Shown in pieces: positions 3,434-24,425 of a DNA stretch of 64,000 nucleotides (position 1 is its first letter; every line of letters begins with the position of its first letter). The DNA is from an uncultured Candidatus Saccharibacteria bacterium. GTDB lineage: Bacteria > Patescibacteriota > JAQUNI01. The DNA is taken from positions 19,943 through 83,942 of the forward strand of contig CAZKRD010000003.1 of assembly GCA_964555185.1 (NCBI GenBank). The letters run 5' to 3'. Made by a program: the position numbers and the translations under genes. The notes beneath the pieces are model-generated. The model saw only the letters and a program-made list of their open reading frames with translations. It searched no databases and had not been told where the DNA came from.

Positions 3434-4027
3434 TTAAGGTAAACTTTCACAAGCAAGGCCATCGTTATCATTACCATCTAACCTATGAATGTTCCCAGCT
3501 CCTTGTTGCACACAATAGTTATAGCAGGCCTGAGCGGCGGCGTGAGTTGTGAAATCAGAACAATTATATCTGTTATAACTACAATCACAAACTGCTGTCG
3601 TGGGCGGTGGCGTAGGCTTAGGTGTCACTTTGGGTTGTGCAGTAGGGGTGGGTTCGACAGGTGTCGGTTCTAGTTCTTGTGGTTGAGGCGGTTGTTCTTG
3701 TTTTGGCTCTTGAATCAATGGTTCAACTTTTTGGGTTTGTTCGGTTTTGGGTTGTGTCGTAGGAGCGGGTTCAACAGGTGTCGATTCTGATTCTTCAGGT
3801 TGAGATGGTTCTTCTTGCTCTGGTTCTTGATTTAATGATTCAGCTTCTTGGGTTTGTTCAGTGGCTGATTGTTCCTGTACACCTTCTTGTGGTTGTTCTG
3901 CTTCGGTTGTTCCTGTTTTCGTCTCCTCTATATTGGTTTCTTCTTCTCTAGGGATTTGAGTGGTTTCTGTACAACCAGATAAAATCAACACGCCAACTAA
4001 AATAACAAATAATGTTATTTTTTTCAT
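3434..4027 (-). CDS. lipoprotein with Pro/Glu/Thr-rich tandem repeats and C-terminal Excalibur Ca-binding motif
   Basis: Lipobox LILSGC; ~100-bp tandem DNA repeats encoding EPxPTxQPK units; C-terminal DGNDNDGLACE matches the Excalibur DxDxDGxxCE motif. Confidence 0.6.
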   Translation of the reverse strand: MKKITLFVILVGVLILSGCTETTQIPREEETNIEETKTGTTEAEQPQEGVQEQSATEQTQEAESLNQEPEQEEPSQPEESESTPVEPAPTTQPKTEQTQKVEPLIQEPKQEQPPQPQELEPTPVEPTPTAQPKVTPKPTPPPTTAVCDCSYNRYNCSDFTTHAAAQACYNYCVQQGAGNIHRLDGNDNDGLACESLP

Positions 4028-4036
4028 CTTTTTGAA

Positions 4037-4294
4037 TTATTTTGCAAGCCCATTTCGTCTTAAACAATTTTGATAAGACCTTTCGAAATCATCACTTATT
4101 AAAAACTGTTGTTTGGCGACAAACTCTTTAAAAGTGCCATCGGTCTTAAAACTTCCCCCTACGGTTTCATAGCATTTTTTCCTAATCTGGCTTGGTCGCC
4201 ATTCAAACCAATAAAACCCAAATCCTAGAATGAGAAGCACCAAAACTACTAAGACTGTTTTCCAAATAAAGATTTTTTTGATTTTTTCTCTCAT
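4037..4294 (-). CDS. small single-TM protein (paralog family WFxxRPxQIRKxCY...CLxxxGL)
   Basis: 85 aa; TM helix then conserved motif shared with 5091..5420 and 5429..5683. Confidence 0.4.
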   Translation of the reverse strand: MREKIKKIFIWKTVLVVLVLLILGFGFYWFEWRPSQIRKKCYETVGGSFKTDGTFKEFVAKQQFLISDDFERSYQNCLRRNGLAK

Positions 4295-4302
4295 ATAATT
4301 GT

Positions 4303-4596
4303 TTAATAATGAACACCTGTTCCCTCCTCACCAAAGGTCTCTTCACAAAGGCTAAAACCGCCTTCCCATTTACAATTTTTGCCACATTCCCATCTATCAG
4401 TTAAATTCCCACTTTGAGATTTTATTCCTTCTCCCCACTTAACACATTCTTCGGCAGATTTTAAGTCTGGGCTAATTATATAATTATTACAAGTCAAACA
4501 ACCATTAGGATAATAGAAACCCTGATAATTATCTTTCTTAAAAAGGAAATTATATCCAAAATAAATAAAAGCTATAATTAAAATCAAAATCATCAT
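4303..4596 (-). CDS. small Cys-rich membrane protein
   Basis: 97 aa, N-terminal TM helix, 8 Cys. Confidence 0.3.
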   Translation of the reverse strand: MMILILIIAFIYFGYNFLFKKDNYQGFYYPNGCLTCNNYIISPDLKSAEECVKWGEGIKSQSGNLTDRWECGKNCKWEGGFSLCEETFGEEGTGVHY

Positions 4597-4671
4597 TTTT
4601 ATTGATGAAATAATTCTTGTTTTTGTCTATCGTCTTTTCCTCTATCATATATTTAAAATAAGGCCCATCGC

Positions 4672-5118
4672 CTATTTTTGTTCCTTGTCATGTTTACGCC
4701 TTGCAAAACCACCCACCATTAAAGCAATCGCAATAATAGTCCAAGCCATGGTCGCGCCACTAAAATATACCTGTTGCACTATAATTGTTGAAAACCACCC
4801 AGGTATTGCGAAGACAACCAAAAGCCCAATGCCCCAATAAACCAAGGTTTTACCCGAACGAAGGCCCATTTTGTCTTTGGCTTGTGCATATTCTTTATTT
4901 GATCGGAAAAGCATCCATACAAGCAAGCCTAAACCAACCCACTGGATAATCACAGCGACGATTGTTACTGCTAAAGACCTGCCAAGCAGAAGGAAAAGCA
5001 AACTAGGAATTACAGCAAGCAGGATAAGCCCCAGAACAATATTTTTTCTAACAGTCCATTGTTTCATGATATTAAAATTAGCTTTGTCACTTACTTTAAG
5101 CCGTGCTTCTCCAAGCAT
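4672..5118 (-). CDS. polytopic membrane protein
   Basis: 148 aa with 4 hydrophobic helices. Confidence 0.4.
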   Translation of the reverse strand: MLGEARLKVSDKANFNIMKQWTVRKNIVLGLILLAVIPSLLFLLLGRSLAVTIVAVIIQWVGLGLLVWMLFRSNKEYAQAKDKMGLRSGKTLVYWGIGLLVVFAIPGWFSTIIVQQVYFSGATMAWTIIAIALMVGGFARRKHDKEQK

Positions 5119-5420
5119 TGGTCGAAATAGACTTTAAAATCATCCATGTTATACATTTCTTCTTGCTCAACTGTTTTAGCAAGCTCCTCATCAAATTCCC
5201 CAAACTTTATTCGTATATCCTTCATTTTGTTTATCGCTTTTTCCGAGGCTAGGTCATCACACCTTTGCCTGATTCGTAGGGGGCGATATTCATACCAGTA
5301 AAACCACCCACCAATTACAATCAACAAGAAAACTAAAATCATCCCAACAAGCATAATTTTGGGTTTGATAGACTTCTTTTTTTCATCTGGCATATTTTCG
5401 TCTGCCATATATTTATCCAA
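5091..5420 (-). CDS. small single-TM protein (same paralog family)
   Basis: WFYWYEYRPLRIRQRCD...CLEKHGLK. Confidence 0.4.
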   Translation of the reverse strand: MDKYMADENMPDEKKKSIKPKIMLVGMILVFLLIVIGGWFYWYEYRPLRIRQRCDDLASEKAINKMKDIRIKFGEFDEELAKTVEQEEMYNMDDFKVYFDQCLEKHGLK

Positions 5421-5428
5421 GAGTCTAT

Positions 5429-5683
5429 TTATTCCTTTAGGCCGTGCTCATAAAGGCACGCCTGATAATAAAAGCCGAACATATTTTTTACAAAAGTATT
5501 AACTTCAGAGTCTGCTAATTTAGGTAATTCGACTTCTGTTAGGCCTTTCATTGTGTCGTTAGCTTCAGTATAGCAAGCCTTTCTTATTTGATAAGGTCTA
5601 AATTGAAACCAATAAAACAGGAATCCTAAAACCAGAATGATAACAACGATGTGAACGATCTTCCAAGAGAATATTCTTTTCAT
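5429..5683 (-). CDS. small single-TM protein (same paralog family)
   Basis: FYWFQFRPYQIRKACY...CLYEHGLKE. Confidence 0.4.
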   Translation of the reverse strand: MKRIFSWKIVHIVVIILVLGFLFYWFQFRPYQIRKACYTEANDTMKGLTEVELPKLADSEVNTFVKNMFGFYYQACLYEHGLKE

Positions 5684-6505
5684 ATGTTTAGAAAATATAC
5701 CTTGATTTAAATCACAAAACCTCCCGCCAGATTATGGTCTTGCGACCAACAGACTCTTTCGAGACTGACTTTGTAAAGCAAGTTCCTCTGACGAGAGGCT
5801 CTCTATGCTTTACAAGGCTTTTGATGCCATATCAGTTGAAAACTGACTTAGGCGATTTGATTGTAGGGTCTAACTGGTTAACTCCTCTTACATCAATTAT
5901 TACTTAGCCTTTTATAATCTTATTATACAGCAGAGGCTTATTATCTGTAAATCTTAAAATGAACATTAGCGCCTCGCTCTTGAAGCCAAGGCCTGTTCAA
6001 AATTTCCTTGCGCTCTTACTACTTGAAAGCGACTTACCAATTCGTTCACTGTCCCCCAAAAACAAGTTTTTTACGATAAAGCTGGAAACGAGAATGATTC
6101 CGATGAGTGAAATGCACAGAAGAAACAAGATTATCAGGAATATCAAGAAGATGAGGCAGTATTATTGATTCTTGCATTTTCCGAAGTCTCGGTGTAAGGT
6201 GGTATTAGAGTCGCAAAAAACACAGTTCAAAAAAGGACAATCTGGTAACCCTAAAGGTCGGCCCAAAGGAACTAAGAATTTCTCTACTATTTTTGATGCA
6301 GCTGTCAAACAGATAGCGATAAAGGATAACATCTCTGTAGCACAGATTGCTTTCGTAGTAGTAAAGAAGCTCAAGAGAAAGCAAGAGAGATCATAAAATT
6401 TTTAAGAGAAACACAAAACGAGAACGGCAACAATTAAACAAAAAAGGCGATAAAGAATCAACCTGTAAAAACAGGTAAAAAACAGGTGGGTGGTAGAAAA
6501 GCAAA

Positions 6506-7822
6506 ATGTCTGTTAATAAAAAAGAGAACAATTATTATCCTGAAGTTCCTGATAAATATAAGAAAGAATATATTGACAGATTTGGAGATAATAAAAAGAA
6601 ACCAAAAATCCTAAAAATAGTAGGATTTTTTTGTAAGTTTATAATTTTTGCAATAATTGCAACTGTACTTATTTGGTTTTTTATTAATTCCGAGGATAAT
6701 ACTGACAATACTTTTAATGCAAGAGAATTTCCTCAACTGGAAGAACCAAAGACTATAACATTTGAATGGGGATATAAAGGATCAAAATATTCAATAACAG
6801 ACATTTTTTACAAGACGGTTTACGATTATTACAATTCAGACCTAGATAAAAATTGTTCCCAAAGAGAGATTGAAGAAGAGATTTGTTTTAAAAAGTTCCT
6901 AGAAGAAGCGGAAGAAGACAATACAATTTTAAGGATAGTTTCGGATATTAAAGAAATAGCATCTGAAAACGAATTCAGTAATGATGAGTTAGTAGAAGTA
7001 GTTGTAGCCTTTGTTCAATCGATTCCTTATGATGATGATAAGGCTAGATTAATTACATCACTCCCAGAGTCTTATTATGAAGACGACTATGATGTTAAAT
7101 CTAAAATAGAAAAAACCCTCCCAAGGTATCCATACGAAACCCTATACGATAATACGGGAATTTGTACAGATAAGAGCTTTTTAACAACATCCCTTATAAG
7201 CAAACTAGGCTATGGTGTCGCCTTGTTTGATTTTGATAAAGAAGAGCACATAGCTCTCGCAATAAAGTGTCCAATAGAATATTCTTCCTATGACTCTGGT
7301 TATTGTTTTACAGAAACGACTGAAACAGGATTTAAAATAGGTGAAATACCTCTAATAGATAACAAAACAAATAAGCCGAAAGCCAGAACTACATTGGGCT
7401 CGCATAAGCAAAACAATACAAGAACAGACCTTTTGCCCTTAGAAGGTGTTGAAATATATGAAATAACTGATGGAAATAGTTACCAAGGAGTAATTGAGAT
7501 AGCCAAAACAGAGCAGAAATTACAGAAACTAGAAAAAGAAATCGATAGTTTATATATAGTTATAAACTCGTTAACTAAAGAACTGGAGCAATTAGAAAAA
7601 AATATTACTTATTATGAGCAGCAGGTTGATGAAGCTTATGAAAGGCATCAAATAATCCAAGATTACGCATCGTATGAGGACTATGAACAGGTATATACTG
7701 AATATGAATATGAGGTAAAAAAGTATAAATCTAAAACAGCTTTGGCCAATGATCAAATTGCTAAATATAATAAATTAGTCGACGAATATAACGGTATTAT
7801 AGAATCCTTCTATCCCGAATAG
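6506..7822 (+). CDS. membrane-anchored transglutaminase-like protein with C-terminal coiled coil
   Basis: TM helix near N-terminus; GICTDKSFLTTSLISKLGYGVALF...EEHIALAI resembles the transglutaminase-like Cys/His core; C-terminal heptad-rich region. Confidence 0.4.
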   Translation: MSVNKKENNYYPEVPDKYKKEYIDRFGDNKKKPKILKIVGFFCKFIIFAIIATVLIWFFINSEDNTDNTFNAREFPQLEEPKTITFEWGYKGSKYSITDIFYKTVYDYYNSDLDKNCSQREIEEEICFKKFLEEAEEDNTILRIVSDIKEIASENEFSNDELVEVVVAFVQSIPYDDDKARLITSLPESYYEDDYDVKSKIEKTLPRYPYETLYDNTGICTDKSFLTTSLISKLGYGVALFDFDKEEHIALAIKCPIEYSSYDSGYCFTETTETGFKIGEIPLIDNKTNKPKARTTLGSHKQNNTRTDLLPLEGVEIYEITDGNSYQGVIEIAKTEQKLQKLEKEIDSLYIVINSLTKELEQLEKNITYYEQQVDEAYERHQIIQDYASYEDYEQVYTEYEYEVKKYKSKTALANDQIAKYNKLVDEYNGIIESFYPE

Positions 7823-7973
7823 ATACTATAAAAGGTATGGGGTCAGGTTTTGAATCTTGACCTTTTTTTTATTTCTCCTTCCATCAAGCAAAACAAAAAA
7901 AGAATCTTGCGATTCTTGATTTTTTAATCAAGTTCTGCGAATGGTCTCCAGTAGCTCTTGTTGCTGTCATTTT

Positions 7974-9011
7974 CTACAAATCTTCCTTCATCAACTTAAA
8001 ATTCACCTGGTAGGTGTAAAGAGTAATGTTTTTCAATTCTTTGAGAGCATATTTTAATTTCTTGTCTACTTCCAAAACCACAATTACTCCTTTAACTATT
8101 TTGTCTTTGGCAAGGTTTTCTCGAACCCAAGCAATATAACGCAGTATCTGACCGACAACTGCATCGGAACTTCTGCCCTTTTTTAGCTCGATAACTAAAT
8201 ACTCCTTGCCATCTTTAAATCGAGCTAAAATATCTATTGGACCAACTGGTGTAGCATATTGTTGGCTTACCAAGTCCCCTTCCTCTTCGATCAACTCGTA
8301 TTTCTTACCGAAAGTTGTTTTACTCCAGTTAGCTATTAGAAAATCCTCAAGATGGCTCTCCATGCCAAAATTGACCAAATCTGCAACTCCATGTTCCTCG
8401 GCTTCCTTCTTTATTGCCTCTTCTTCGCTTTGAGAAACACCAAATGGGCTACTTCCGGAAATATTTCCTAAAACACCATCCAGTTGCCACAGGGTTATAT
8501 CGTGCTTATCTGCTAACTCCAACAACACTTGGTTGACCTTCAGATACTTATCAGCAAAGGTATCTCTTGGCAAAAACCTGGGAAATAGATTAAGTTTCTT
8601 TAAAGCCGACTCACTTTTGGTATTCCACACACCGTATTTGGCAGGATAAACGACTAGGAGAATAGGGGTAACAACCGCTCTACCCAATCCCTTGATATTA
8701 TAGCTGCTTCTTTTACTAAACGCCTTCTGTAATCTCTCTTTTATGGGGATATTCTCATCAAGAAGAAGATGCAGAAACTTCTTTAGTGCGTCCATATCAG
8801 AGGTAACTAGATTTCCTTGCCTATGTATTCCCTCCCAGTGAAGGTTGTTTTTTAGGAGTAAAAACGATTTGAAATCTTCTTTTATAAGACCATCGAGGTT
8901 AGCCGGATTAAACAATTGCCCATATTCTCCAACCACCTTTTTCTCTGACGTTACCCACCATGGGTCTTTTGCCCTGTTTTTAACAACTTTCTGAATGATT
9001 TCTTGTTCCAT
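7974..9011 (-). CDS. NucS/DUF91-like PD-(D/E)xK nuclease domain protein
   Basis: C-terminal PIDILARFKDGKEYLVIELKKGRSSDAVVGQILRYIAWV matches the conserved DUF91/NucS nuclease core. Confidence 0.5.
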   Translation of the reverse strand: MEQEIIQKVVKNRAKDPWWVTSEKKVVGEYGQLFNPANLDGLIKEDFKSFLLLKNNLHWEGIHRQGNLVTSDMDALKKFLHLLLDENIPIKERLQKAFSKRSSYNIKGLGRAVVTPILLVVYPAKYGVWNTKSESALKKLNLFPRFLPRDTFADKYLKVNQVLLELADKHDITLWQLDGVLGNISGSSPFGVSQSEEEAIKKEAEEHGVADLVNFGMESHLEDFLIANWSKTTFGKKYELIEEEGDLVSQQYATPVGPIDILARFKDGKEYLVIELKKGRSSDAVVGQILRYIAWVRENLAKDKIVKGVIVVLEVDKKLKYALKELKNITLYTYQVNFKLMKEDL

Positions 9012-9410
9012 AGGTCTATTTTAACAAAATTATAATAATTCTTTACACTGGCAACAAAAATATGATGAATACTAAAGACACAAATCCTCCAAAGCATAAA
9101 CCACGGAAGTATTTAGAAATACTGCGACAACTTGGGAAAAATGGGGTCGGGGTCGACTCTGATTTTTCTTTAGCTTAAACTCAAAAGTTTTACACTTAAA
9201 GTCCGATGTTGCTCCGCATCGTGGATAATGTTAGAACTATTATCCAGCGACAAAATGAGTATATTTACATCCCAGACTTATCTTCACAAGGTCAGATTTA
9301 GTTTATTGATTATTACTCCACCCCACTACTCACTATATATTTTGAATAAAAGGTTCCTGACACCTTTTTTCCCAGGCAAAAATTTCCTCCCCCCAACCCC
9401 CTCCATTTTT

Positions 9411-9448
9411 GCCTGCCTGCTGTTTTGGTAAGGCGAAATTAACAGGCC
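9411..9448. repeat. left 38-bp terminal inverted repeat of RM cassette
   Basis: gcctgcctgctgttttggtaaggcgaaattaacaggcc is the reverse complement of 13099..13136 with one mismatch. Confidence 0.85.
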
Positions 9449-9451
9449 AAA

Positions 9452-10912
9452 TCAATTTTTGAGTATAGTCAGGTCAATATCAATCTGCTTTCCAGCGACC
9501 AAATCGCCAGCAATAGATTCCAGTTTTTGCTTGATTCGTTTGGTTTTCTCGTGAGTCAAAACAACTTCCCGATAAACTTTTGCGATTTGGCCTCTCAGAC
9601 CAGCTGGAAAATTAGGGAATGGTGTATTCAAAAATTGATTTGTCTTGATTTCTTTCATCTTTGACCCTATCGCAAGCCCAGCACAATAAAGTCGCATATA
9701 GTTGCAGTTCATAAAACAAGACATAAATAGTAAATCAGTATCAGGATAACCGGAGACCCTATAAATCCCTTGATTGTGTTGGGCTTTACCATACAGAGCT
9801 ATGTCAAAGAACATTGCGACACCAACATATTCTCCTCGGCCGCCACGCGAAGTTCGATTGACGAGCAACATCGCATTTTTGTTTAGATTGTTCTTTTCGC
9901 AAGTGATACGCTCCTCGTTTCTAAACGCGCCGAAGTCAGTAATATTTGCCGGCGTAACCCAAAAATATTTTAGTTCCTGACTTGTCCCGACCATGCGTTT
10001 TTTAGGCGTGTTCCCACTCTTGATATTTTTTTGATCAATTAGAAAAAATCCTGCTTTGTAATTCCGAACTAAAAAATCAATCTGCTAAAATTCTTTGCTA
10101 TATGTCCTAGTATCTAAACGAATCTCTTTCCCGATTTTGTTGGTAGTTGGATATTCGTACTGAAATTTCTTTGATTTTTGATTTGAGAGTTCCTTTTCAA
10201 TCAACTCATTGATAGTGGCGGATTTGTCTCTGACAAACCTTTCTTGTTTTATGACCGCCGTAACAAGTTTTTCAATATATTTAATTACTTCCTCCTGATT
10301 TTTTTGGTTCGGAAATGGAATTTTACAATCCAAAAAAAGTGTTTTTGCGTGCTTGATCGTGGTGCCTCGTGAGACAAGGAGTAAGAGTTGAATTTTAAAA
10401 AAAACACTTTTCAGCAATCCAAACACATATAGTTTTTGTTTTGTAAGGGGCAACCTGTATATGCCGCCTGAAATCATATGTTGTGGATAATCTTTATCCA
10501 AAATGATAACCTCGCCGACATTCGAATCTTTTGAAATCAAAATATCACCTTTTTTTAATTCATAATTTTTGAAACTCGAGGGTAGAATAGGAACCACACT
10601 TTCGGGCGAGAATGCAGGCAAAAAATAATCCGGCTGTAACCCCTTTGTTCGAATAAACTGAAATGGAGAATTCGATATATAACTCTGCGATCCGACCTCA
10701 ACTCCTTTATCAGTGGATTTGAGCGGACGATCAAGGAGATCGCGCAAATCCACACTATTTCTATTCTCAATTCTTAATCCTTTATATTGAGAAGCGGAAA
10801 GAGAATAGTGCCTGGAAGCTACTTCATTGGAGCGTATTTCAGTTGGTACTTTAATATAGTTCATTTGTCCAAAAAAACATCTTGTAGAGTTTTCTCTTGA
10901 CCTAAACACCAA
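9452..10912 (-). pseudogene. HsdS-like two-TRD specificity subunit interrupted by a single in-frame TAG (10085..10087)
   Basis: ORFs 10085..10912 (TRD1: GDILISKDSNVGEV...IPFPNQKNQEEVIKYIEKL) and 9452..9994 (TRD2: NTPFPNFPAGLRGQIAKVYRE) are in the same frame; the 31 intervening codons are open and separated only by the TAG. Confidence 0.6.
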
Positions 10913-13008
10913 TCCTTGAATTCCTTGACTGTTTGGGTAAATTCTTCATCAAGCAAGGGTTTACCCTCCTCATCTATTTTAACCTCAAATTTATTACTAT
11001 CAATTTTATAGATCGGAACAAAATGTTTAACACGCTTGATGGTTTTTACTTTGTATCCGACTCGCTGAATATCTTTCACAAAAATGTTGTAGCCATTCTC
11101 ATTGAGTTTCTTCAATTCTTTCTCAGATGGCTTGTAGGCAACGATGACCGTTGTATTGACTCCCGTATCGGCAAATACATTTGCAGGAAGATCGAATAAA
11201 GCAACGACTCTCATTTTTGACATAATCCATTTCCTTGCCTTCTCCCATCTATCAATTGATGCTATCGAATTTGAAAGTATAATACCGACTCGGCCGTTTT
11301 CTTTCAAGATACGGTAAGCATTTTCAAAAAACACAAGGCCGAGATCAATCCAATTTCCATTTCTTCCAACGTGCCAAAGCTCATAGAGTTCAATAATCTC
11401 TTTATCTTTTTGAGTTTTTGGTTCAAATTTCCTATCTTCTCCAAACGGCGGATTAGTTAGGACGATATCAAATTTTTTGAGTTCAGTATAGTCGTCCCAC
11501 GCATCCCAATTTCCGGCCTTGTGTTTTGCTGGAATGAGATTTACTAATTTCCCGTCCTTGTCGAATTTGTGAGTGATGGAACCATAGCCCGGCTGGAATT
11601 CTATCTTGGCGTTTCCGTCTCCGTTCAGAAGCATATTTAACTGTGCTAACATGACCATTTGCACGTCGTTATCAATTCCATAAATGTTTTTATCGTCCAT
11701 TTTTCTGTCGGACTTGACATAAGAAATTGACAAGAAATCTCCGCTGCCAACAGTCGGATCGGCTATCGTGTCCAACGCTTTCGGGTGAACTATATCAACA
11801 AGAAAATCAATCAATGGAATTGGTGTCAAAAATTGTCCCTTCTCGGATTTGGTAAAAGCGTTCGCAAAACGATAGAAAATGAGTTGATATAGATCAGTTG
11901 TACTCGATCTGGTAAAGCTGTAATCCTGCAAGTTATGGACTATTGAACCCACGACGGCAACATGTCCCTCGTTTTTCCAGTCAATAATTGAATTGCTCAA
12001 AATCACTTTATATGTACTTACCGCTTGGGCGCACAAATCCCGCATGCGTTTAATAAATGTTTGTATACTTTGGTCGTTGAGCGTCTTGAAATCGCGTTCA
12101 TTTTGTTCGATATAAAATTTGAGACGATGAATATCCCCGTATTCATCGTCTTGAATATAGTATTTCAACAACTCGTTCTTTTTTTCGTCGAAAATTTTGA
12201 GCGCGATAAGTTGAACCAAAATTTCATATCCGCGCTGGTTCAACATGCTTACCTTGTCGAGCGTTCGCAAAATATCGGAAATCGCCTGATTGATTTGAGT
12301 ACTAAAGACTCCGGTGATAACATCAAGATCATTTACGGTTCGTGCAGACCTGTCAATTTCTATATCAATAATGCGCTTTTTGATTTGATCAAAGGACGGA
12401 ATTTTTCGGAATTCATCGGGTAGGTGGAGAGACAATTCTCTTGTTGAACTGTTTTCTCCTTTTAGGTTGTACGATTCATCAAGGCGAATAAACTTGCCAT
12501 GCTTTTTTTGGAATAAAAATAGCCGTTCGGTGTCATAGAGAACGCCAAGACAAAAGTCGCTCTCCGATTCTTTAATGGCTGGTTTAAGTTGTTGATTATA
12601 GACCGTTTCAATATCCTTGCCATCTTCTTTCTTGAATTCAATGACGGCAATGAGATGACTTCTCAACCAATCAAGGTCGGATTGATTCTTTTTTGTAATC
12701 CAATTTTTATATCTATCAAACCAATTCTTATCGTCGAAAATCGCGCCGTCAAATTTGATGGGTGCAGAATTCTTGTTGCCTTTCGGAAAATAAACCTCCG
12801 AGCCGATAAAATCTTTTTGATAAAGTCCTGAATATACCAATCCGTAGAAAAATTGCCATTTGTAATATTCTTCGTTGGGCGTATTTCTTGACCCCTTGAT
12901 TTTGACCTTCTTATTCAACTTAAGATTGACAGGAAGGAAGGCCATGAAGTCTTTTTTTGTCAAATAGAACTTATCAAATTTTTGTTTTGTTTCAAAAAAT
13001 GTCTTCAT
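10861..13008 (-). CDS. type IIB/IIG restriction-modification enzyme (PD-(D/E)xK endonuclease fused to N6-adenine methyltransferase), BcgI-A-like
   Basis: N-terminal FDGAIFDD...IAVIEFKKED (D...ExK); methylase motif I DPTVGSGDFL and motif IV NPPFG; 3' end overlaps the specificity gene. Confidence 0.8.
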   Translation of the reverse strand: MKTFFETKQKFDKFYLTKKDFMAFLPVNLKLNKKVKIKGSRNTPNEEYYKWQFFYGLVYSGLYQKDFIGSEVYFPKGNKNSAPIKFDGAIFDDKNWFDRYKNWITKKNQSDLDWLRSHLIAVIEFKKEDGKDIETVYNQQLKPAIKESESDFCLGVLYDTERLFLFQKKHGKFIRLDESYNLKGENSSTRELSLHLPDEFRKIPSFDQIKKRIIDIEIDRSARTVNDLDVITGVFSTQINQAISDILRTLDKVSMLNQRGYEILVQLIALKIFDEKKNELLKYYIQDDEYGDIHRLKFYIEQNERDFKTLNDQSIQTFIKRMRDLCAQAVSTYKVILSNSIIDWKNEGHVAVVGSIVHNLQDYSFTRSSTTDLYQLIFYRFANAFTKSEKGQFLTPIPLIDFLVDIVHPKALDTIADPTVGSGDFLSISYVKSDRKMDDKNIYGIDNDVQMVMLAQLNMLLNGDGNAKIEFQPGYGSITHKFDKDGKLVNLIPAKHKAGNWDAWDDYTELKKFDIVLTNPPFGEDRKFEPKTQKDKEIIELYELWHVGRNGNWIDLGLVFFENAYRILKENGRVGIILSNSIASIDRWEKARKWIMSKMRVVALFDLPANVFADTGVNTTVIVAYKPSEKELKKLNENGYNIFVKDIQRVGYKVKTIKRVKHFVPIYKIDSNKFEVKIDEEGKPLLDEEFTQTVKEFKDWCLGQEKTLQDVFLDK

Positions 13009-13098
13009 GAAATTTTTATTCCATCAGATTGCTTGATTATACATCATGGTTTCCTTACGTATTTAGTATAGCAAGAATATTAAAAAAAGAACAGAGTG

Positions 13099-13136
13099 GC
13101 CTGTTAATTTCGCCTTGCCAAAACAGCAGGCAGGCA
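13099..13136. repeat. right 38-bp terminal inverted repeat of RM cassette
   Basis: ggcctgttaatttcgccttgccaaaacagcaggcaggc. Confidence 0.85.
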
Positions 13137-13139
13137 GGT

Positions 13140-13366
13140 TGAGATGGCTCTTCTTTCTTTGGCTCTTGACTTAACGATTCAACTTCTTGGGTTTGTTCAG
13201 TGGCTGATTGTTCCTGTACATCTTCTTGTGGTTGTTCTGCTTCGGTTGCTCCTGTTTTCGTCTCCTCTATATTGGTTTCTTCTTCTCTGGGGATTTGAGT
13301 GGTTCCTGTACAACCAGATAAAATAAACAGGCTAACTGAAATAATAAATAATATTATTTTTTTCAT
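13140..13366 (-). pseudogene. truncated duplicate of the 5' end of lipoprotein gene 3434..4027
   Basis: First ~75 codons (MKKIILFIISVSLFILSGCTGTTQIPREEETNIEETKTG...) and the upstream catctttttgaattatt leader are ~90% identical to 3792..4035; reading then continues into the TIR. Confidence 0.55.
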
Positions 13367-13375
13367 CTTTTTGAA

Positions 13376-14221
13376 TTATTTGTTCAGGCATTCTAAATAC
13401 TGCTTGTCAGACAGGGCTTTCGCTTCCTGCTCAGTCTTAACGACCGTTTCTTCCGCCTTGTCCTTGATCGCTTGTAGCAATTCTTCACTGGAGTAAACTG
13501 CGACCATACAAGTATCGTACTCTGATTGTCTAATATCTCGAAGTTGAGAAGGACTAAAAGGAAATCCTTGTAATCTTTCTGGTAATGGTTCGTATGATTT
13601 CTTAGCGCAGTCGCCTTTCGCATCTAATATTTCAAGTTCTTTAGGTTTCAATGTCTTTTCGGCCTCCTCTTGTATGTAATTCATATTGACCTTGAATTTG
13701 TCAAAACTTAACTGGGTTTCAGCCTTACATTTTTCTATCTTTAATTGAGTTTCCTCTTCCTTTCTTTGCTCTTCGGTTAGCCTTTGGGCTTCTTCCGTCG
13801 CTTTTTTCTCTGCTTCTACTTGTCTTTTTGCTTCCTTCTCGGCCTCAGCCTGTTGAGCCGCCAAGACTTGTTGTTGATGTTTTCTTTCTTCTTCTTGTTC
13901 CTTTGCTCTTCTCGCTATTTTTGCTTGGGCTTCTGCCTCTGCTTCTTCCGCTTCCTTTTCTACTCTTACTCTTTCCTCTGTTTGCCTCTGGAGTTCCGCT
14001 TCTTGCCTCTCTTTTTCCAGCTTAGTGATCTCTCGATCAATCAACTGCTTTCCTATTTGCTGTTCAGTTCTGATTTGCTCCTGCTCTGATGATCTTTGCG
14101 TTTTAACATAAGAAGCCAAGACCGAAAAGTTAATAATCAAAAAAAGCGCAACCCCAGCGCAAATATAAGAGAGAATCCTCCAAGGAAATATTTTTTTAAC
14201 GAAATTCCAGATTCGTTTCAT
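13376..14221 (-). CDS. membrane-anchored coiled-coil protein (E/K/Q/A-rich)
   Basis: N-terminal TM helix, ~150-aa charged coiled-coil segment, Cys-containing C-terminal domain. Confidence 0.4.
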   Translation of the reverse strand: MKRIWNFVKKIFPWRILSYICAGVALFLIINFSVLASYVKTQRSSEQEQIRTEQQIGKQLIDREITKLEKERQEAELQRQTEERVRVEKEAEEAEAEAQAKIARRAKEQEEERKHQQQVLAAQQAEAEKEAKRQVEAEKKATEEAQRLTEEQRKEEETQLKIEKCKAETQLSFDKFKVNMNYIQEEAEKTLKPKELEILDAKGDCAKKSYEPLPERLQGFPFSPSQLRDIRQSEYDTCMVAVYSSEELLQAIKDKAEETVVKTEQEAKALSDKQYLECLNK

Positions 14222-14241: not shown

Positions 14242-14296
14242 AAAAACGTGGAAAAACGTGGAAAAACGTGGAAAACCATGGAAAATGGTGGAATTG
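14242..14296. repeat. 10-bp tandem repeat array (gaaaaacgtg x3 plus two degenerate units)
   Basis: aaaacgtggaaaaacgtggaaaaacgtggaaaaccatggaaaatggtggaa immediately upstream of the 13376..14221 start. Confidence 0.75.
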
Positions 14297-14797
14297 CAGC
14301 TCCCAAAGGTTGGGATTTAGAGTGAGGGTTGTAGTAAATCGAGATTGAGGTCGAGTAGGTCAGGTGCTTTATGTTGTCCGATTCAATGCTATGTCAAAAA
14401 CCGTTATAGAAGAGGTTATAAAAAATGCGATAGTTAGCATGACAAGAATGGATATATTTTTTCGTTCCTTTATTCTATTTTTATAATTTGTCCTGCCCTG
14501 CCACTCACTATATAATTATAAAACCTGCTTTCATTATAGCAGGTCGCTTTGATTGAAGGAATCAAAGGAGTTCGAATTTGATTCGGGGTAATAAAAAATA
14601 ATCGCGTCGATAAGCGATTTTTTTGTTGGCTCCCTGTATTGGACGCATTTAGAACTATAGATTGGTACAAGATTAAACAAGAATTTAAGCTTATTCAATT
14701 TATACTCAAACGCAATAATGTTTATATAATGCTTTGAAAAAAATCCCATTTGATTTTGACATTTTCCACATTTTATAATAAAATTAAAGTAAGAATT

Positions 14798-18868: not shown

Positions 18869-20479
18869 ATGAAGAAAGTCGCTATTTACACAAGAGTTTC
18901 TAGCGAAGAGCAAGTAAATGGTTATAGCCTAGGAGATCAACAAGAGAAGTTGCAGGATTATTGTAAATCCAATGGTTTTCTATTAGAAAAAAGACATATA
19001 TACCGAGAGGAAGGAATTAGTGGCGCAAAAAAGGAAAGGCCTGTTTTAAGCCTGTTATTACAGGCAGCTCAAAATAAGGAGTTTGCCTTAGTTTTAGTTT
19101 ATAAATTAGATCGGTTTTCAAGGAGCCTAAAGAATCTCCTTGAGCTAGTTGCTGATTTAGAGAGAAATGGAATTGGTTTTAAGTCAATTACAGAGACATT
19201 TGATACTTCAACTCCGATGGGCAAGTATATGCTTCAGAATTTAGGGTCCATAGCTGAACTAGAGAGAGAGATGATCAGAGAAAGGACTCTAATGGGACAA
19301 ATCAAGTATCTTAAAGAGGGCAACTGGAAGGGGGGCATTACTCCCTATGGATACGATTACAATAAAGAGACTCACAAACTTGAAATTAATAAAGAAGAGG
19401 CTAAGATTGTTCGGAAAATGTATAAATGGGTTGCAGAAGAAGGTTCAACTTCACATTCAGTCCAAAAGCGACTTAATGATTTAGGGATTTCTACTAAGTA
19501 TGGTAACTTAGGTAAAAAGAAGCAGGTTAATGGTGCGTGCTTTTGGAAGAAAAGGACCGTTGGCAGGATTTTAACTAACGAGATTTATTCGGGTACATTT
19601 ACTTATCGTAAATATAAATATTTGGGGAGGGTTAGAGGAGAAGATAATTTACGTCCCGAGGACGAGTGGATTAAGATTAAAACTCCTAGAATAGTTAGTA
19701 AAAAGATTTTTGATTTGGTCCAGAATCAAATAAATAAAAATAAAAAACACTCACCGAGAAATAGTAAGTATAAATATCTTTTTGCCCACATGATTAAGTG
19801 TGGTTACTGTGAAGGTAGGTATGGGAGTATGTATAGTGCTGAACGCAAAAGAGGTGTAGTTGGACGGAAGAGATATTTTTGTCATAACACCAGAGCGGAT
19901 AATAAACAGGAGAAATGTAAAGCCAAAAGCGTGGCAGAAAAAAGAATTAGTGAGCCCATCTGGAACAAGATAGCAGAGGCGTTGAGTAATCCAGCCATAG
20001 CTTTTGAGCAATTGGAAAAGATACAGAAGAAAGAGAACAACATTGAGGAGGTTCAAGAGAAACAGAGAGAATCAGATAAGCTGATCCTTAAGAACAAAGA
20101 AAAATCCAGACGATTACTGGATTTGTATTTGGGAGGTGGGGTAGATAAGGAGACTTACGAAGAGAAAGTGGGGGAGATAAATAAAGAGGCCGATAGCTTC
20201 AGGCGGGAAAAAGTAAGGTATAATAACCTTTTTATTTCCAAAGAAGAGAAGAAGGCGAGAACACAATCAATTCAGGAGATGTATGGGCGGTTCAAGGACA
20301 ATCTTAAGAAAATCACCTATTCTCAAAAGAGAGAAGTGCTTAAAATGTTGATAGATAAGGTAATTATTAAAGGCGCAAAGATTGATATTTACTGTAATAT
20401 TCCCTATAAATACTCGTTTGAGGGACAGTCAACTCTCCTTCCGTGTCTTTGCCTTCGGGGTCGGGCAGAAATTCATTGA
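18869..20479 (+). CDS. large serine recombinase (integrase)
   Basis: N-terminal AIYTRVSSEEQ catalytic serine motif, recombinase domain, Cys-rich zinc ribbon (CGYCEG...C...C), coiled-coil C-terminus. The last ~15 codons read antisense through the LTD gene. Confidence 0.9.
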   Translation: MKKVAIYTRVSSEEQVNGYSLGDQQEKLQDYCKSNGFLLEKRHIYREEGISGAKKERPVLSLLLQAAQNKEFALVLVYKLDRFSRSLKNLLELVADLERNGIGFKSITETFDTSTPMGKYMLQNLGSIAELEREMIRERTLMGQIKYLKEGNWKGGITPYGYDYNKETHKLEINKEEAKIVRKMYKWVAEEGSTSHSVQKRLNDLGISTKYGNLGKKKQVNGACFWKKRTVGRILTNEIYSGTFTYRKYKYLGRVRGEDNLRPEDEWIKIKTPRIVSKKIFDLVQNQINKNKKHSPRNSKYKYLFAHMIKCGYCEGRYGSMYSAERKRGVVGRKRYFCHNTRADNKQEKCKAKSVAEKRISEPIWNKIAEALSNPAIAFEQLEKIQKKENNIEEVQEKQRESDKLILKNKEKSRRLLDLYLGGGVDKETYEEKVGEINKEADSFRREKVRYNNLFISKEEKKARTQSIQEMYGRFKDNLKKITYSQKREVLKMLIDKVIIKGAKIDIYCNIPYKYSFEGQSTLLPCLCLRGRAEIH

Positions 20480-21935
20480 TCCAGACAGTGCGTGGATATT
20501 CTTGGGCTTCTTTAGGGCTTTGAGCTGAACAAATGTTTTGTTCAGCTGGTGTGGGTTCTAGGCTCCAACACCAATCACCATTCATTTTATTATAAGATTC
20601 AGCTTTGGGGGCTTCTCCATATTCAATCTCATCAATTGCTTGGCCTGAGGGCCAGAGGAGCCTGACCCAATCACCACTGTTGTTTAAGGTGATCTTGGTT
20701 TCGGAATAGGGGAGGCTTAGATACTCCCCTGCTTTAATTTCAGAATCTTCAGGAAAGGTATAGGGCCGTGATCCTTTATCCTCTTCGTCATCTAATTGCC
20801 AATTTTCCAGATCAATTTCATCTGGGCCTGGGTTGTAAAGTTCAATAAATTCTCCTTCCGTGTCCTTACCTTCGGGGTCGGGTAAAAATTCTGAAATCCA
20901 GATATGACGGGGATAGCTGGAAGAATCGTCTTTTTCGTCTTCTGAAATTACATTCTTCTGTCCAGGTGTTAAAGTAGTGCTCCAGGTCCAAGTGTCATCT
21001 TCCTTACGATTGTAGGATTGGTTTTTGGGTACAGGGCCGGAATAACTTACCTCTTCCAAGGTTTCATTATTGTGAATCAAAAAGACTGTGTCACCACTAT
21101 TGTTTAAAAGGAATTTTGAACCGGTGTAAAAGGCAAGGTAAGAATAGGCCGGCATCGTGGTGCCGGGATCAATTGTAAAACTTGAGGCGGTCTTATCTTT
21201 TATTTTCCAAGATGATAAATCAGCGGTTGTGTCTGAATTATTGAAAAGCTCAACAAACTCTCCTTCCTGGTCAGAGCCCTCTGGGTCAGGCAGAAATTCA
21301 TTGATTACAATATAGTTTATAGAGGGGGTGGTATCTTGGGGGTAGGCGGCGCTGTTTTTTTGTTTGGGCGTGCCATAGATTGGGCCACCATTGCTGTCTT
21401 TACCATTTATAACTATTTGATTGTTCGTCGCCCAATTATCAGAGCTTGAAGCTTCTTTTTGGGGGTCAACCCTTTCCATGCTTGTTTTGTCTGTACTGTT
21501 GCCGCTCAACCAGTCGCTGGAATTGTCTATTTCATCGATTGTATTATTTAAGTTGTCTTTTAAGACAAGATGCTCTCCAGAGTTTTCTAGAGCGCCGGTA
21601 TAGATTTTGTTAGCGGGAAGGTCGGAGATTGTGTTATCATCGGTGCGCTCAAGCAGATAATAGCTTTTTGCCGGAATTGTATCAGCAAGAGCAATTGTTG
21701 GCGTACCATCTTTTGCTTCTAGGGTCCAACCAGCAAGGCCTATATCTTGATCAGTGTTATTAAAAAGTTCAATCCACTCATCCGCGGTAGAAGCCCCAGT
21801 TCCCATCCAAGCAATTTCGTTGATTAGGACATCACTAGGTGAGGCGGCATAGGTCCTGAAAACAAAAGATTCTGCCCCCAAGCAGAACAGAAGAAATATA
21901 ATTAGTCCGAGCGGCAATCTATATTGCCTACGCAT
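20367..21935 (-). CDS. secreted lamin-tail-domain (LTD) repeat protein, 3'-truncated
   Basis: Signal peptide; four repeats of INEFLPDPEG(S/K)D.EGEF(V/I)EL(F/Y)N; the fourth stops after ...PDPEGKDTEGE and continues as non-homologous residues from the recombinase region. Confidence 0.65.
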   Translation of the reverse strand: MRRQYRLPLGLIIFLLFCLGAESFVFRTYAASPSDVLINEIAWMGTGASTADEWIELFNNTDQDIGLAGWTLEAKDGTPTIALADTIPAKSYYLLERTDDNTISDLPANKIYTGALENSGEHLVLKDNLNNTIDEIDNSSDWLSGNSTDKTSMERVDPQKEASSSDNWATNNQIVINGKDSNGGPIYGTPKQKNSAAYPQDTTPSINYIVINEFLPDPEGSDQEGEFVELFNNSDTTADLSSWKIKDKTASSFTIDPGTTMPAYSYLAFYTGSKFLLNNSGDTVFLIHNNETLEEVSYSGPVPKNQSYNRKEDDTWTWSTTLTPGQKNVISEDEKDDSSSYPRHIWISEFLPDPEGKDTEGEFIELYNPGPDEIDLENWQLDDEEDKGSRPYTFPEDSEIKAGEYLSLPYSETKITLNNSGDWVRLLWPSGQAIDEIEYGEAPKAESYNKMNGDWCWSLEPTPAEQNICSAQSPKEAQEYPRTVWINEFLPDPEGKDTEGELTVPQTSIYREYYSKYQSLRL

Positions 21936-24059: not shown

Positions 24060-24365
24060 TTCAAAGTGACCAAGGGTCATCCCGAGGATGAGCGAGGCGA
24101 GGATGAAGGGATCTCGCGGGTATTCCTTAAGGATCCTTGGGACCTTCGATTTATAATTAATGCTTCTTAATCTGTAGGCGGTTTTACGGGGCTATGCTTG
24201 TCAATGGATTTTTTAATGGCGAGTTACCCCTCGCTTAGCGAAGATTTTCGGATGATGATCGTAAATTGAATCTTCATTGGGCGAGGGGGCCAGACTTTCC
24301 TAATCCTTGGAGTTTAGCCTTGCTCTTAAGTAGACTTAGGAGCTTAGCGTCTACAGATTAAGAGG
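24060..24365. ncRNA. candidate structured RNA of unknown class (strand undetermined)
   Basis: ~420-bp ORF-free gap in a compact genome. Nested long-range complementarities: 24070-24078/24132-24140 (9 bp), 24168-24180/24348-24360 (13 bp incl. one G-U), 24227-24234/24281-24288 (8 bp), plus local hairpins. Confidence 0.3.
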
Positions 24366-24425
24366 CATTTATTGTTTTAAAATCTGGGTGGTAATCATCA
24401 AAAACAGAAGGAGGGATGATGTATC

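What the first reader, a model, noticed from the sequence alone, without database searches (positions are those of the whole stretch)
9411..13136. Type IIB restriction-modification cassette precisely bracketed by 38-bp terminal inverted repeats
The two 38-mers (9411-9448 and 13099-13136) are reverse complements with one mismatch. They enclose exactly the RM methylase-endonuclease gene and the specificity gene(s) and nothing else. No transposase or recombinase lies between them, so this looks like a non-autonomous, TIR-bounded (MITE-like) mobilisable RM module rather than a classical transposon. The left TIR is translated as ...ACLLFW at the end of a short ORF and the right one forms the new C-terminus of a truncated lipoprotein duplicate, so insertion created chimeric reading frames.
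Basis: seen in the sequence. Interest (0 to 1): 0.8.

Follow-up and report, generated by a model that had tools for sequence, protein, structure and literature searches.

The report
Restriction-modification operon bracketed by inverted repeats
A bacterial DNA-defence operon in a tiny-genome (CPR) bacterium is framed by a unique, near-perfect 40-base inverted repeat, a "transposon-like" layout already described for such operons, but nothing here shows that it moves or has other copies.

Summary
A 40-nt inverted repeat (IR; 9410-9449 / 13097-13136, one mismatch) is the only strong IR in the 64-kb window. It encloses a BcgI/BsaXI-like Type IIB RM gene, its S gene and an 84-nt leader.

For mobility: the outer edge of the right arm is exactly where a duplicated lipoprotein-gene 5' fragment stops matching its full-length paralogue and the orthologue in a syntenic relative (L015). 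L015 lacks the cassette.

Against mobility:
- There is no target-site duplication.
- The left flank is not the rest of the lipoprotein gene.
- No transposase lies in the window.
- Neither half of the repeat has an exact match in the collections scanned (outer half: GTDB genomes, JGI metagenomes, IMG/VR; inner half: JGI, IMG/VR).
- About nine related RM loci have no such repeats.

The cassette sits at one end of a ~9.1-kb strain-specific insertion flanked by 247-nt direct repeats, inside a hypervariable defence island. The S gene carries an amber stop.

Best reading (about 0.45): a relic of a transposon-like, IR-flanked RM unit, as catalogued by Furuta et al. 2010. The main rival is duplication associated with inversion. 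It is a new member of a known kind, of moderate-low interest.

The parts
9410..9449 (.). Left arm of the 40-nt inverted repeat (TGCCTGCCTGCTGTTTTGGTAAGGCGAAATTAACAGGCCA). Its inner end is 2 nt from the S stop codon.
13097..13136 (.). Right arm of the inverted repeat (one mismatch, C for T at arm position 20). Its outer end is the breakpoint of the lipoprotein-gene homology.
10861..13008 (-). RM fusion gene, 715 aa. It has an N-terminal PD-(D/E)xK-like motif (D87, D92 ... E124-x-K126, invariant in 21 homologues) and a gamma-type N6-adenine methyltransferase domain (NPPF 519-522). It is BcgI/BsaXI-like (Type IIB) and intact.
9452..10864 (-). Specificity (S) gene with two target-recognition domains. 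It is one reading frame, collinear with 465-486-aa homologues, and interrupted by an in-frame TAG at 10085-10087. Its ATG overlaps the RM stop codon (ATGA).
13013..13096 (-). 84-nt leader inside the repeat-bounded unit, not homologous to the leaders of related operons. It contains an extended -10-like TGTATAAT at 13043-13036. The promoter assignment is read from the sequence and is an inference.
13137..13381 (-). Duplicated ribosome-binding site plus 5' 230 nt of a lipoprotein gene (copy A1). BLAST reports the match as 13135-13381, which includes the two bases shared with the repeat. It is 93% identical to 3796-4042 and 87% to the orthologue in L015. Homology ends at the edge of the repeat.
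13055..13366 (-). Chimeric 103-aa ORF: 76 residues of lipoprotein signal peptide and N-terminus, then 27 residues read from the right arm and inner sequence.
3434..4042 (-). Full-length lipoprotein paralogue (197 aa) with the second copy (A2, 3796-4042) of the 247-nt direct repeat. It is 91.5% identical to the single gene in relative L015.
4043..13134 (.). About 9.1 kb present here but absent from syntenic relative L015, flanked by the 247-nt direct repeats. It holds three or four small ORFs, a copy of the LTD-300 upstream segment (6039-6181), a transglutaminase-like gene, a PDC-S02 nuclease gene, a 398-nt spacer and the repeat-bounded RM unit.
9012..9409 (.). Left flank of unknown origin (398 nt, no gene called). 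It has no similarity to the lipoprotein gene, to L015, to homologous nuclease loci, or to the phage and plasmid collections.
9373..9415 (.). Perfect 11-bp hairpin (CAGGCAAAAAT / ATTTTTGCCTG, 21-nt C-rich loop) that straddles the outer edge of the left arm. Z-score -4.4.
7974..9011 (-). Neighbouring NucS_C / PD-(D/E)xK nuclease gene, matching PADLOC candidate defence family PDC-S02 (E 4e-55). It is context, not inside the repeats.

Best explanation
The segment 9410-13136 is a self-contained Type IIB (BcgI/BsaXI-like) restriction-modification operon. It has a candidate promoter of its own and is framed by a unique 40-bp terminal inverted repeat. It is therefore one more example of the 'transposon-like RM unit flanked by inverted repeats' described by Furuta et al. 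2010, and is formally comparable to a mobile insertion cassette.

Inferred history:
- The repeat-bounded unit was joined at its right terminus to the interior of a lipoprotein gene, after codon 76.
- That junction now lies at one end of a ~9.1-kb block of defence genes. The block is absent from a syntenic relative and is flanked by 247-bp direct repeats of the lipoprotein 5' region. This is the 'insertion with long target duplication' pattern, and is also what Campbell-type integration of a circle through that homology would give.
- The left terminus was then separated from the other half of the target by deletion or rearrangement, or the joining was never a canonical cut-and-paste event. Either would explain why there is no target-site duplication.

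The unit is probably immobile and decaying now, because the S gene has an amber stop and no transposase is in sight.

Shown: the repeat, its uniqueness, the gene content, the right-junction breakpoint, the absence of the block from the relative, and the long direct repeats. Inferred: that the repeats were recombination termini, and the order of events.
For: - The 40-nt, 39/40 IR has sharp edges and is the only strong IR in 64 kb.
- It starts TG and ends CA, like many DDE-transposon ends. This is read from the sequence and is weak evidence.
- The repeats lie just outside the operon that is conserved in relatives. DNA homology to five related operons covers at most 9451-13012.
- The homology of A1 to its paralogue A2 and to the L015 orthologue stops at ...CAACCTG, where the repeat begins.
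- Syntenic relative L015 has the 281-aa-gene homologue directly followed by one intact 197-aa lipoprotein gene and no RM cassette.
- No recombinase or transposase gene lies inside the unit, or anywhere in the 9.1-kb block according to the called-gene tables.
- There is published precedent. Of 98 RM systems, 24 were flanked by IRs. IRs unique to the unit were reported for the X. oryzae case, and one example is a BcgI-like IIG+S unit with 26-bp IRs (PMC2853133).
Against: - No 4-12-bp target-site duplication was found, even with +/-3 nt slack.
- The left flank is unrelated to the lipoprotein gene.
- The repeat occurs only at these two places in about 66 kb of the genome.
- The outer half has no exact match in GTDB species genomes, JGI metagenomes or IMG/VR. 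The inner half has none in JGI metagenomes or IMG/VR.
- It has no similarity to anything in the plasmid or phage collections.
- No transposase lies in the window.
- About nine other loci of this RM family lack flanking repeats.
- No identical cassette was seen in a second genomic context.
- An 11-bp hairpin straddles the left junction. This hints that the left arm may be native to its flank rather than an element terminus.
Confidence: 0.45

Rival explanations
1. Duplication associated with inversion (DDAI). The RM operon was inverted in place by a replicative or staggered-break event. That event copied about 40 bp from one breakpoint to the other in inverted orientation. On this reading the repeats are a scar of a rearrangement and not the termini of a mobile element.
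For: - No target-site duplication, and a left flank unrelated to the right-hand target. Both are expected for DDAI.
- The 11-bp hairpin spanning the boundary between the left flank and the left arm suggests that this arm is native sequence contiguous with its flank.
- The locus is visibly rearranged: two pairs of long direct repeats and mosaic gene order relative to L015.
- The repeat is unique, as a local duplication would be.
- DDAI is documented in H. pylori and other bacteria. It is cited as Furuta et al. 2011 in PMC4671568 and PMC8963470.
Against: - It still needs an earlier event that joined the lipoprotein fragment to the RM operon.
- The arms hug the operon very tightly (2 nt from the stop codon, 84 nt from the start). 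That is expected for a packaged cassette but would be fortuitous for random inversion breakpoints.
- No genome with the opposite orientation or a single copy of the 40-mer was found.
Confidence: 0.2
2. The RM operon landed in the middle of a pre-existing host palindrome or short MITE (two 40-bp arms back to back). The arms would then be host or MITE sequence split by the insertion, and not part of the RM unit itself.
For: - The arms are nearly identical and sharply bounded.
- Related RM operons have no such arms, so the repeats were acquired separately from the operon.
Against: - The orthologous lipoprotein gene in L015 and the paralogue have no palindrome at the breakpoint.
- No solo or paired copy of either half was found in the collections scanned or elsewhere in the window.
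Confidence: 0.1
3. Programmed inversion. The two arms are sites for a site-specific recombinase, for example the large serine recombinase at 18869-20479, which flips the RM cassette as a phase-variation switch.
For: - Identical sites in inverted orientation flank a defence operon.
- A large serine recombinase lies 5.7 kb away.
- Phase-variable RM systems are common (general knowledge).
Against: - Contigs assembled independently from several sequencing runs all show the same orientation and run through both arms without breaking.
- The operon has a promoter-like element inside the invertible part, so flipping would not switch it off (inference).
- The recombinase is conserved at the same position (88% identity) in L015, which has no cassette.
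- The 40-mer has no internal dyad symmetry of the kind recombinase core sites have (read from the sequence; predicts no notable structure for the single-stranded arm).
- About nine related RM-family loci have no flanking repeats.
Confidence: 0.07

Closest known systems
Transposon-like RM units flanked by inverted repeats (Furuta, Abe and Kobayashi 2010, NAR 38:2428; PMC2853133)
   Same: - RM genes with no transposase or integrase inside.
- Bracketed by imperfect IRs of 26-65 bp. The paper reports IRs unique to the unit for the X. oryzae case.
- One published case (N. gonorrhoeae) is also a BcgI-like RM plus S-subunit unit.
- The authors likewise could not say whether a transposase acts in trans.
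   Different: - The two best published cases have an 8-bp target-site duplication and a clean empty site in a sister genome.
- Here there is no target-site duplication, and only the right junction can be matched to an uninterrupted target.
- The host here is a Patescibacteria/CPR genome.
Insertion with long target duplication of RM genes (Nobusato et al. 2000, cited as ref. 37 in PMC2853133; Furuta et al. 2010)
   Same: - An R+M-containing insert shorter than 20 kb, without mobility genes.
- Flanked by direct repeats longer than 30 bp (247 bp here).
- A related genome carries a single copy of the repeat and no insert.
   Different: - The repeats here are 93% identical rather than near-identical.
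- The insert is a 9.1-kb mosaic of several defence genes, not just the RM genes.
- The comparison genome is a relative (about 83-97% nt identity in the conserved flanking genes), not a strain of the same species.
Mobile insertion cassettes (MICs) and MITEs, i.e. non-autonomous IS derivatives (e.g. MIC231; concept cited in PMC4337579, PMC6199540)
   Same: Terminal inverted repeats flank passenger genes, with no transposase inside.
   Different: MICs and MITEs share their ends with a resident IS or transposon, are usually multicopy, and have target-site duplications. None of these three features was found here.
[quoted passage not shown] 2011, as cited in PMC4671568 and PMC8963470)
   Same: - An inverted duplicate of a short local sequence at the two ends of a segment.
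- No target-site duplication.
- A rearrangement-rich locus.
   Different: No ancestral arrangement with the opposite orientation is available to show that an inversion happened.
BcgI/BsaXI-type Type IIB restriction-modification enzymes
   Same: - A fused nuclease-methyltransferase subunit plus a separate S subunit with two target-recognition domains.
- The best sequence hits among solved structures include RM.BsaXI, and the best fold hit is BsaXI (8w0p).
   Different: - The RM subunit is 715 aa, against 916 aa for BsaXI.
- Sequence identity in the fold alignment is only about 19%.
- The S gene carries an amber stop.
- Double-sided cleavage is untested.

Membership tests
Transposon-like RM unit flanked by IRs (Furuta 2010) | RM genes bracketed by inverted repeats, with no mobility gene inside | tested here: met
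   40-nt IR, 39/40. Only the RM and S genes lie inside.
Transposon-like RM unit flanked by IRs (Furuta 2010) | Repeats unique to the unit (not a high-copy genomic repeat) | tested here: met
   Two copies only in the window, with 3 mismatches allowed. The outer half has 0 exact hits in GTDB genomes, JGI metagenomes and IMG/VR; the inner half has 0 in JGI metagenomes and IMG/VR. The rest of the 707-kb scaffold could not be scanned.
Transposon-like RM unit flanked by IRs (Furuta 2010) | Short target-site duplication, and an empty site in a related genome | tested here: not met
   No 4-12-bp direct repeat at the ends. L015 gives an uninterrupted target for the right junction only. The left flank is unrelated.
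MIC / MITE-like non-autonomous element | Ends shared with a resident IS or transposon whose transposase acts in trans | tested here: inconclusive
   No transposase in the 64-kb window (and the gene tables). No similarity of the ends to plasmid or phage records.
MIC / MITE-like non-autonomous element | Multiple copies, or the same ends around other cargo | tested here: not met
Insertion with long target duplication | Insert shorter than 20 kb containing R and M, flanked by direct repeats longer than 30 bp, with a single copy at the uninterrupted site of a related genome and no mobility gene in the insert | tested here: met
   The 247-nt repeats 13135-13381 / 3796-4042 are 93% identical. L015 has one copy and no insert. 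The gene table shows no integrase or transposase in 4043-13134.
Type IIB (BcgI/BsaXI-like) RM system | Single polypeptide with a PD-(D/E)xK nuclease and an N6-adenine methyltransferase | tested here: met
   N6_Mtase and Eco57I Pfam hits. D87/D92...E124-x-K126 and NPPF are invariant in 21 homologues. The top fold hit is BsaXI 8w0p_A, E 1e-13, over about the full length, but the model is only moderate (pLDDT 62.7).
Type IIB (BcgI/BsaXI-like) RM system | Separate S subunit with two target-recognition domains | tested here: met
   Collinear with 465-486-aa S proteins of homologous loci, 67% identity. It is interrupted by a TAG at 10085-10087.
Type IIB (BcgI/BsaXI-like) RM system | Cleaves on both sides of the recognition site | not testable with these tools
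   Needs a biochemical assay.
Invertible (phase-variable) DNA segment | Both orientations present in a population | tested here: not met
   All independent contigs (ENA scaffold; Logan contigs L002 and L003, the latter seen in 5 runs) have one orientation and pass through both arms. This is a weak test, because rare variants would be missed.
Invertible (phase-variable) DNA segment | A dedicated recombinase linked to the switch | tested here: not met
   The only recombinase is 5.7 kb away, and it is conserved at the same place in L015, which lacks the cassette.
DNA duplication associated with inversion | Segment inverted relative to the ancestral order, with one arm native to its flank | tested here: inconclusive
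   No relative carries this cassette at this locus. The hairpin across the left junction is only suggestive.

The most novel reading that the evidence does not exclude
The 40-bp ends are the functional termini of a non-autonomous DNA transposon that carries a whole Type IIB RM operon in a CPR bacterium. It would be mobilised either by an unrecognised transposase elsewhere in the genome or, more radically, by the RM enzyme itself, since Type IIB enzymes cut on both sides of a site and could release the cassette if each arm holds a site. That would be a defence system that moves as its own minimal transposon, in a lineage where insertion sequences are thought to be scarce.
Probability: 0.08. Interest if true: 0.7.

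Novelty: new member of a known kind. Interest (0 to 1): 0.3.

Why it matters
How RM systems spread without obvious mobility genes is still unsettled. IR-flanked RM units have been known since 2010, but no mechanism has been shown for them. This case adds an example from Patescibacteria/CPR and a breakpoint-level view of how a defence island was assembled: an IR-bounded operon, a 247-bp target duplication and mosaic neighbours. On its own it does not make the mechanism testable, because there is only one copy, no target-site duplication and no second context.

Tried and rejected
- **Assembly artefact:** rejected. Both junctions recur in independent Logan assemblies.
- **Other copies:** none found.
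  - Exact scans of the outer 25 specified bases in GTDB genomes, IMG/VR and JGI metagenomes gave no hit.
  - Exact scans of the inner 22 specified bases in JGI metagenomes and IMG/VR gave no hit.
  - Three-mismatch searches of both halves in the window found only the two arms.
  - BLAST against all fetched loci found nothing further.
- **Known RNA:** no Rfam hit in 8800-13600.
- **Known IS ends, plasmid or phage similarity:** only chance-level hits for the arm, and none for the left flank.
- **Target-site duplication:** none of 4-12 bp, with +/-3 nt slack.
- **IRs as a general feature of this RM family:** rejected. About nine loci at 57-83% protein identity have only weak AT-rich IRs.
- **Link to the large serine recombinase:** rejected. 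It is conserved in the cassette-free relative, and the recombinase fragment next to the L007 homologue is unrelated.
- **Contig breaks at 9339/9357 as a structural polymorphism:** not supported. They are compatible with nearby SNP bubbles, and the arms share no 31-mer because the mismatch sits at arm position 20.
- **Defining the left junction from homologues of the neighbouring nuclease:** failed. The closest is 81% identical and sits in another context, and DNA homology stops at 9013.
- **Divergence clock:** one mismatch in 40 against 17 in 247 for the direct repeats is not significantly different (P = 0.23), so it says nothing about age or selection.
- **TAG recoding:** rejected. TAG ends 4 of 18 long conserved ORFs.


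Full report
**1. The observation.** The window holds a 40-nt inverted repeat (IR), 9410-9449 (TGCCTGCCTGCTGTTTTGGTAAGGCGAAATTAACAGGCCA) and 13097-13136. The arms are 39/40 complementary, with the mismatch at arm position 20.
- No shuffle of the window produced a match.
- In 20 shuffled windows the longest IR with at most one mismatch within 6 kb was 14-18 nt, against 40 here.
- In the whole window no other IR exceeds 88% complementarity, and the others are AT-rich.
- Each half, searched with 3 mismatches allowed, occurs only at these two places.
- The same sequence, with both junctions, is present in independently assembled contigs from other sequencing runs (L002, L003). It is therefore not an assembly artefact.

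**2. What lies between the arms.** Everything is on the minus strand.
- *RM gene (10861-13008, 715 aa).* It matches N6_Mtase and Eco57I. It belongs to a very large, well-conserved family: 1974 hits at E<=1e-10, with the top 120 at 61-83% identity, and the few that carry names are mostly from Patescibacteria or Microgenomates. In 21 homologues D87, D92, E124 and K126 are invariant. These form a PD-(D/E)xK-type pattern. The NPPF methyltransferase motif at 519-522 is also invariant.
- *Relation to known enzymes.* The best solved relatives by sequence are a Type I M protein and RM.BsaXI. A moderate AlphaFold model (pLDDT 62.7) has BsaXI, a Type IIB enzyme, as its top fold match over nearly the full length.
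- *S gene.* It starts at 10864, with its ATG overlapping the RM stop codon, and is collinear with the 465-486-aa single S proteins of related loci down to 9455. It has one in-frame TAG at 10085-10087, where homologues have K or R. TAG is a genuine stop in this organism. The two 'specificity genes' are therefore one gene with an amber mutation.
- *Leader.* The 84 nt between the RM start codon and the right arm contain an extended -10-like TGTATAAT at 13043-13036. This is read from the sequence, and the promoter assignment is an inference.
- *Summary.* No recombinase or transposase lies inside. 'Type IIB RM cassette and nothing else' is correct.

**3. Where the repeats sit relative to the conserved operon.** DNA of five related operons (72-73% identity for L007-L010 and L018-L020, 67% for L011/L012) aligns to the window over 9451-13012 at most, that is from the S stop codon to 4 nt upstream of the RM start codon. 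The arms lie immediately outside this range. None of about nine related loci with flanks (L007-L012, L018-L020, L027, L029) has a comparable flanking repeat. The repeats are therefore not a property of the RM family. They were acquired in this lineage.

**4. The right junction is a true breakpoint.**
- Positions 13135-13381 are a 93%-identical copy of 3796-4042. That stretch is the ribosome-binding site and first 230 nt of a 197-aa lipoprotein gene at 3434-4027.
- A three-way alignment with the orthologue in relative L015 shows that all three sequences agree up to ...CCATCTCAACCTG. The paralogue and orthologue then continue AAGAAT..., while the truncated copy continues CCTGCCTGCTG..., which is the repeat.
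- Only the dinucleotide TG is shared, so the outer end of the right arm coincides with a recombination junction.

**5. The left junction cannot be matched to anything.**
- The 398 nt between the left arm and the next gene (9012-9409) have no called gene.
- They show no similarity to the lipoprotein gene, to L015, to loci carrying homologues of the neighbouring nuclease, or to the phage and plasmid collections.
- There is no 4-12-bp direct repeat at the two ends, even with +/-3 nt slack.
- A perfect 11-bp hairpin (9373-9383 / 9405-9415) straddles the outer edge of the left arm, with a z-score of -4.4. This is unexplained. It hints that this arm may be contiguous native sequence.

**6. Wider context.**
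- *Source.* The window comes from a 707-kb metagenomic scaffold. The rest of the window is housekeeping chromosome (polA, uvrB, ruvA, rpoB, murE and others) with no transposase.
- *The relative.* L015 is a JGI contig with about 83-97% nucleotide identity in the conserved flanking genes (VanW-like gene, ruvB/pgi, LTD gene). It has the order ruvB-pgi-LTD-large serine recombinase-HTH-...-239-aa protein-one intact lipoprotein gene-three small ORFs-LTD-300-hicBA-yebC-ruvC.
- *The insertion.* In the window genome the homologue of the 239-aa gene (281 aa, 13376-14221) is followed by the truncated lipoprotein copy. Next comes about 9.1 kb absent from L015. In descending coordinates this block holds:
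  - the IR-bounded RM unit;
  - the 398-nt spacer;
  - a NucS_C nuclease gene matching PADLOC candidate defence family PDC-S02;
  - a transglutaminase-like gene;
  - a 143-nt copy of the LTD-300 upstream region (6039-6181);
  - small ORFs.

  Only after this block comes the full lipoprotein gene.
- *Classification of the block.* It meets the published criteria for 'insertion with long target duplication'. It is also what Campbell-type integration of a circle through the lipoprotein homology would give.
- *Timing.* The two lipoprotein copies resemble each other more than L015 in the upstream 20 nt, so the duplication post-dates the split from L015.
- *The recombinase.* The serine recombinase is 88% identical and in the same position in L015, so it is not tied to the cassette.

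**7. Search for other copies.**
- Exact scans with the outer 25 specified bases found nothing in GTDB species genomes, JGI metagenomes or IMG/VR.
- Exact scans with the inner 22 specified bases found nothing in JGI metagenomes or IMG/VR.
- No protein identical to the RM protein occurs in a second genomic context.
- These scans need exact matches, and the remaining ~640 kb of the scaffold could not be read. Diverged copies or copies elsewhere in this genome are therefore not excluded.

**8. Explanations.**
- *Best (about 0.45).* The arms are the termini of a transposon-like RM unit of the type catalogued by Furuta et al. 2010 (PMC2853133). In that study 24 of 98 RM systems were IR-flanked. The repeats were reported as unique to the unit in the X. 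oryzae case, and one example is a BcgI-like RM+S unit with 26-bp repeats. Here, one terminus still abuts the interior of a target gene. The other half of the target and any target-site duplication have been lost to later rearrangement in a recombination-prone defence island.
- *Main rival (about 0.2).* Duplication associated with inversion would give inverted copies of a local 40-mer at the ends of a flipped segment, with no target-site duplication (concept cited in PMC4671568 and PMC8963470).
- *Lesser rival (about 0.1).* Insertion into a pre-existing palindrome or MITE.
- *Lesser rival (about 0.07).* A programmed inversion switch. This is disfavoured for four reasons:
  - contigs from several runs show one orientation and pass through both arms;
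  - a promoter-like element lies inside the segment;
  - the only recombinase is conserved in the cassette-free relative;
  - related RM loci lack repeats.

**9. Comparison with what is known, and verdict.**
- The layout works like, and can be filed with, the IR-flanked RM units of Furuta et al. 2010. It does not meet the target-duplication criterion of their two best-documented cases.
- It fails or cannot be tested on the features that define MICs and MITEs, namely shared IS ends, multiple copies and target duplication.
- The finding is a new member of a known kind. Its modest added interest comes from its CPR host and from the breakpoint-level picture of how the defence island was assembled.
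- Interest is 0.3. The most novel reading still open, a cassette mobilised in trans or by its own Type IIB enzyme, has a probability of about 0.08.

Noticed in passing
window 10085-10087 (within S gene 9452-10864, minus strand): A single in-frame TAG splits the S gene into 259-aa and 180-aa ORFs, between the two target-recognition domains. Homologues have K or R at this position. TAG is a real stop here, and the mutation is present in all assemblies. The RM system is either inactivated or uses half-S subunits.
   Followed up: yes
window 7974-9011 (minus strand): A NucS_C / PD-(D/E)xK protein matches PADLOC candidate defence family PDC-S02 (E 4e-55). It has more than 2500 homologues, mostly in Microgenomates-type CPR bacteria. 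In L025 its homologue follows an AAA_21 ATPase gene instead of an RM operon.
   Followed up: partly
window 1-20480 and beyond the window start (L013, L026): The whole stretch between ruvB-pgi-LTD and yebC-ruvC is a variable island, about 24 kb here against about 10 kb in relative L015. It begins with a large serine recombinase plus an HTH_17 gene. It holds the RM unit, PDC-S02, SLFN_AlbA_2 and a HicB antitoxin-like gene (its HicA partner is called in L015 only). The 3' end of the recombinase gene overlaps the convergent LTD gene (20367-21935) by 112 nt, which suggests an old attachment junction.
   Followed up: partly
window 6039-6181 versus L013 19261-19402 (just outside the window start): A second pair of direct repeats (143 nt, 86% identity) copies the upstream region and first codons of the LTD-300 gene. 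Together with the lipoprotein repeats this gives an A1...B1...A2...B2 order, suggesting that a whole locus frame was duplicated or imported.
   Followed up: partly
window 9328-9339 and 14503-14514 (plus strand): The 12-mer ACTCACTATATA occurs twice (0.13 expected), both times in intergenic DNA of the island, within a ~22-nt similar context. It resembles the core of T7-type promoters. Logan contigs from several runs break right next to the first copy (9339/9357).
   Followed up: partly
window 9373-9415: A perfect 11-bp hairpin with a 21-nt C-rich loop (G-rich on the minus strand: GGAGGGGGTTGGGGGGAGGAA) spans the outer edge of the left arm. Z-score -4.4.
   Followed up: partly
window 14242-14291: Four tandem copies of a 10-nt unit (AAAAACGTGG, the last two degenerate) lie just upstream of the 281-aa coiled-coil gene. 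They could be a regulator-binding array.
   Followed up: no
window 12117-12156: An 18-pair hairpin lies inside the RM coding sequence. The scan scored it as terminator-like on both strands.
   Followed up: no
window 24155-24180 / 24348-24373: A 26-nt inverted repeat (88% complementary, 167 nt apart) lies upstream of ruvB. It is the second-best IR in the window.
   Followed up: no
window 3629-3862: The full-length lipoprotein gene contains an internal 117-nt tandem duplication (81% identity) that encodes a Pro/Glu/Gln/Thr-rich linker.
   Followed up: no
L007 9565-10894: In the closest RM homologue locus (83% aa identity), a fragmented large serine recombinase gene lies convergent to the S gene, 17 nt after it. 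It is unrelated in sequence to the window's recombinase.
   Followed up: partly
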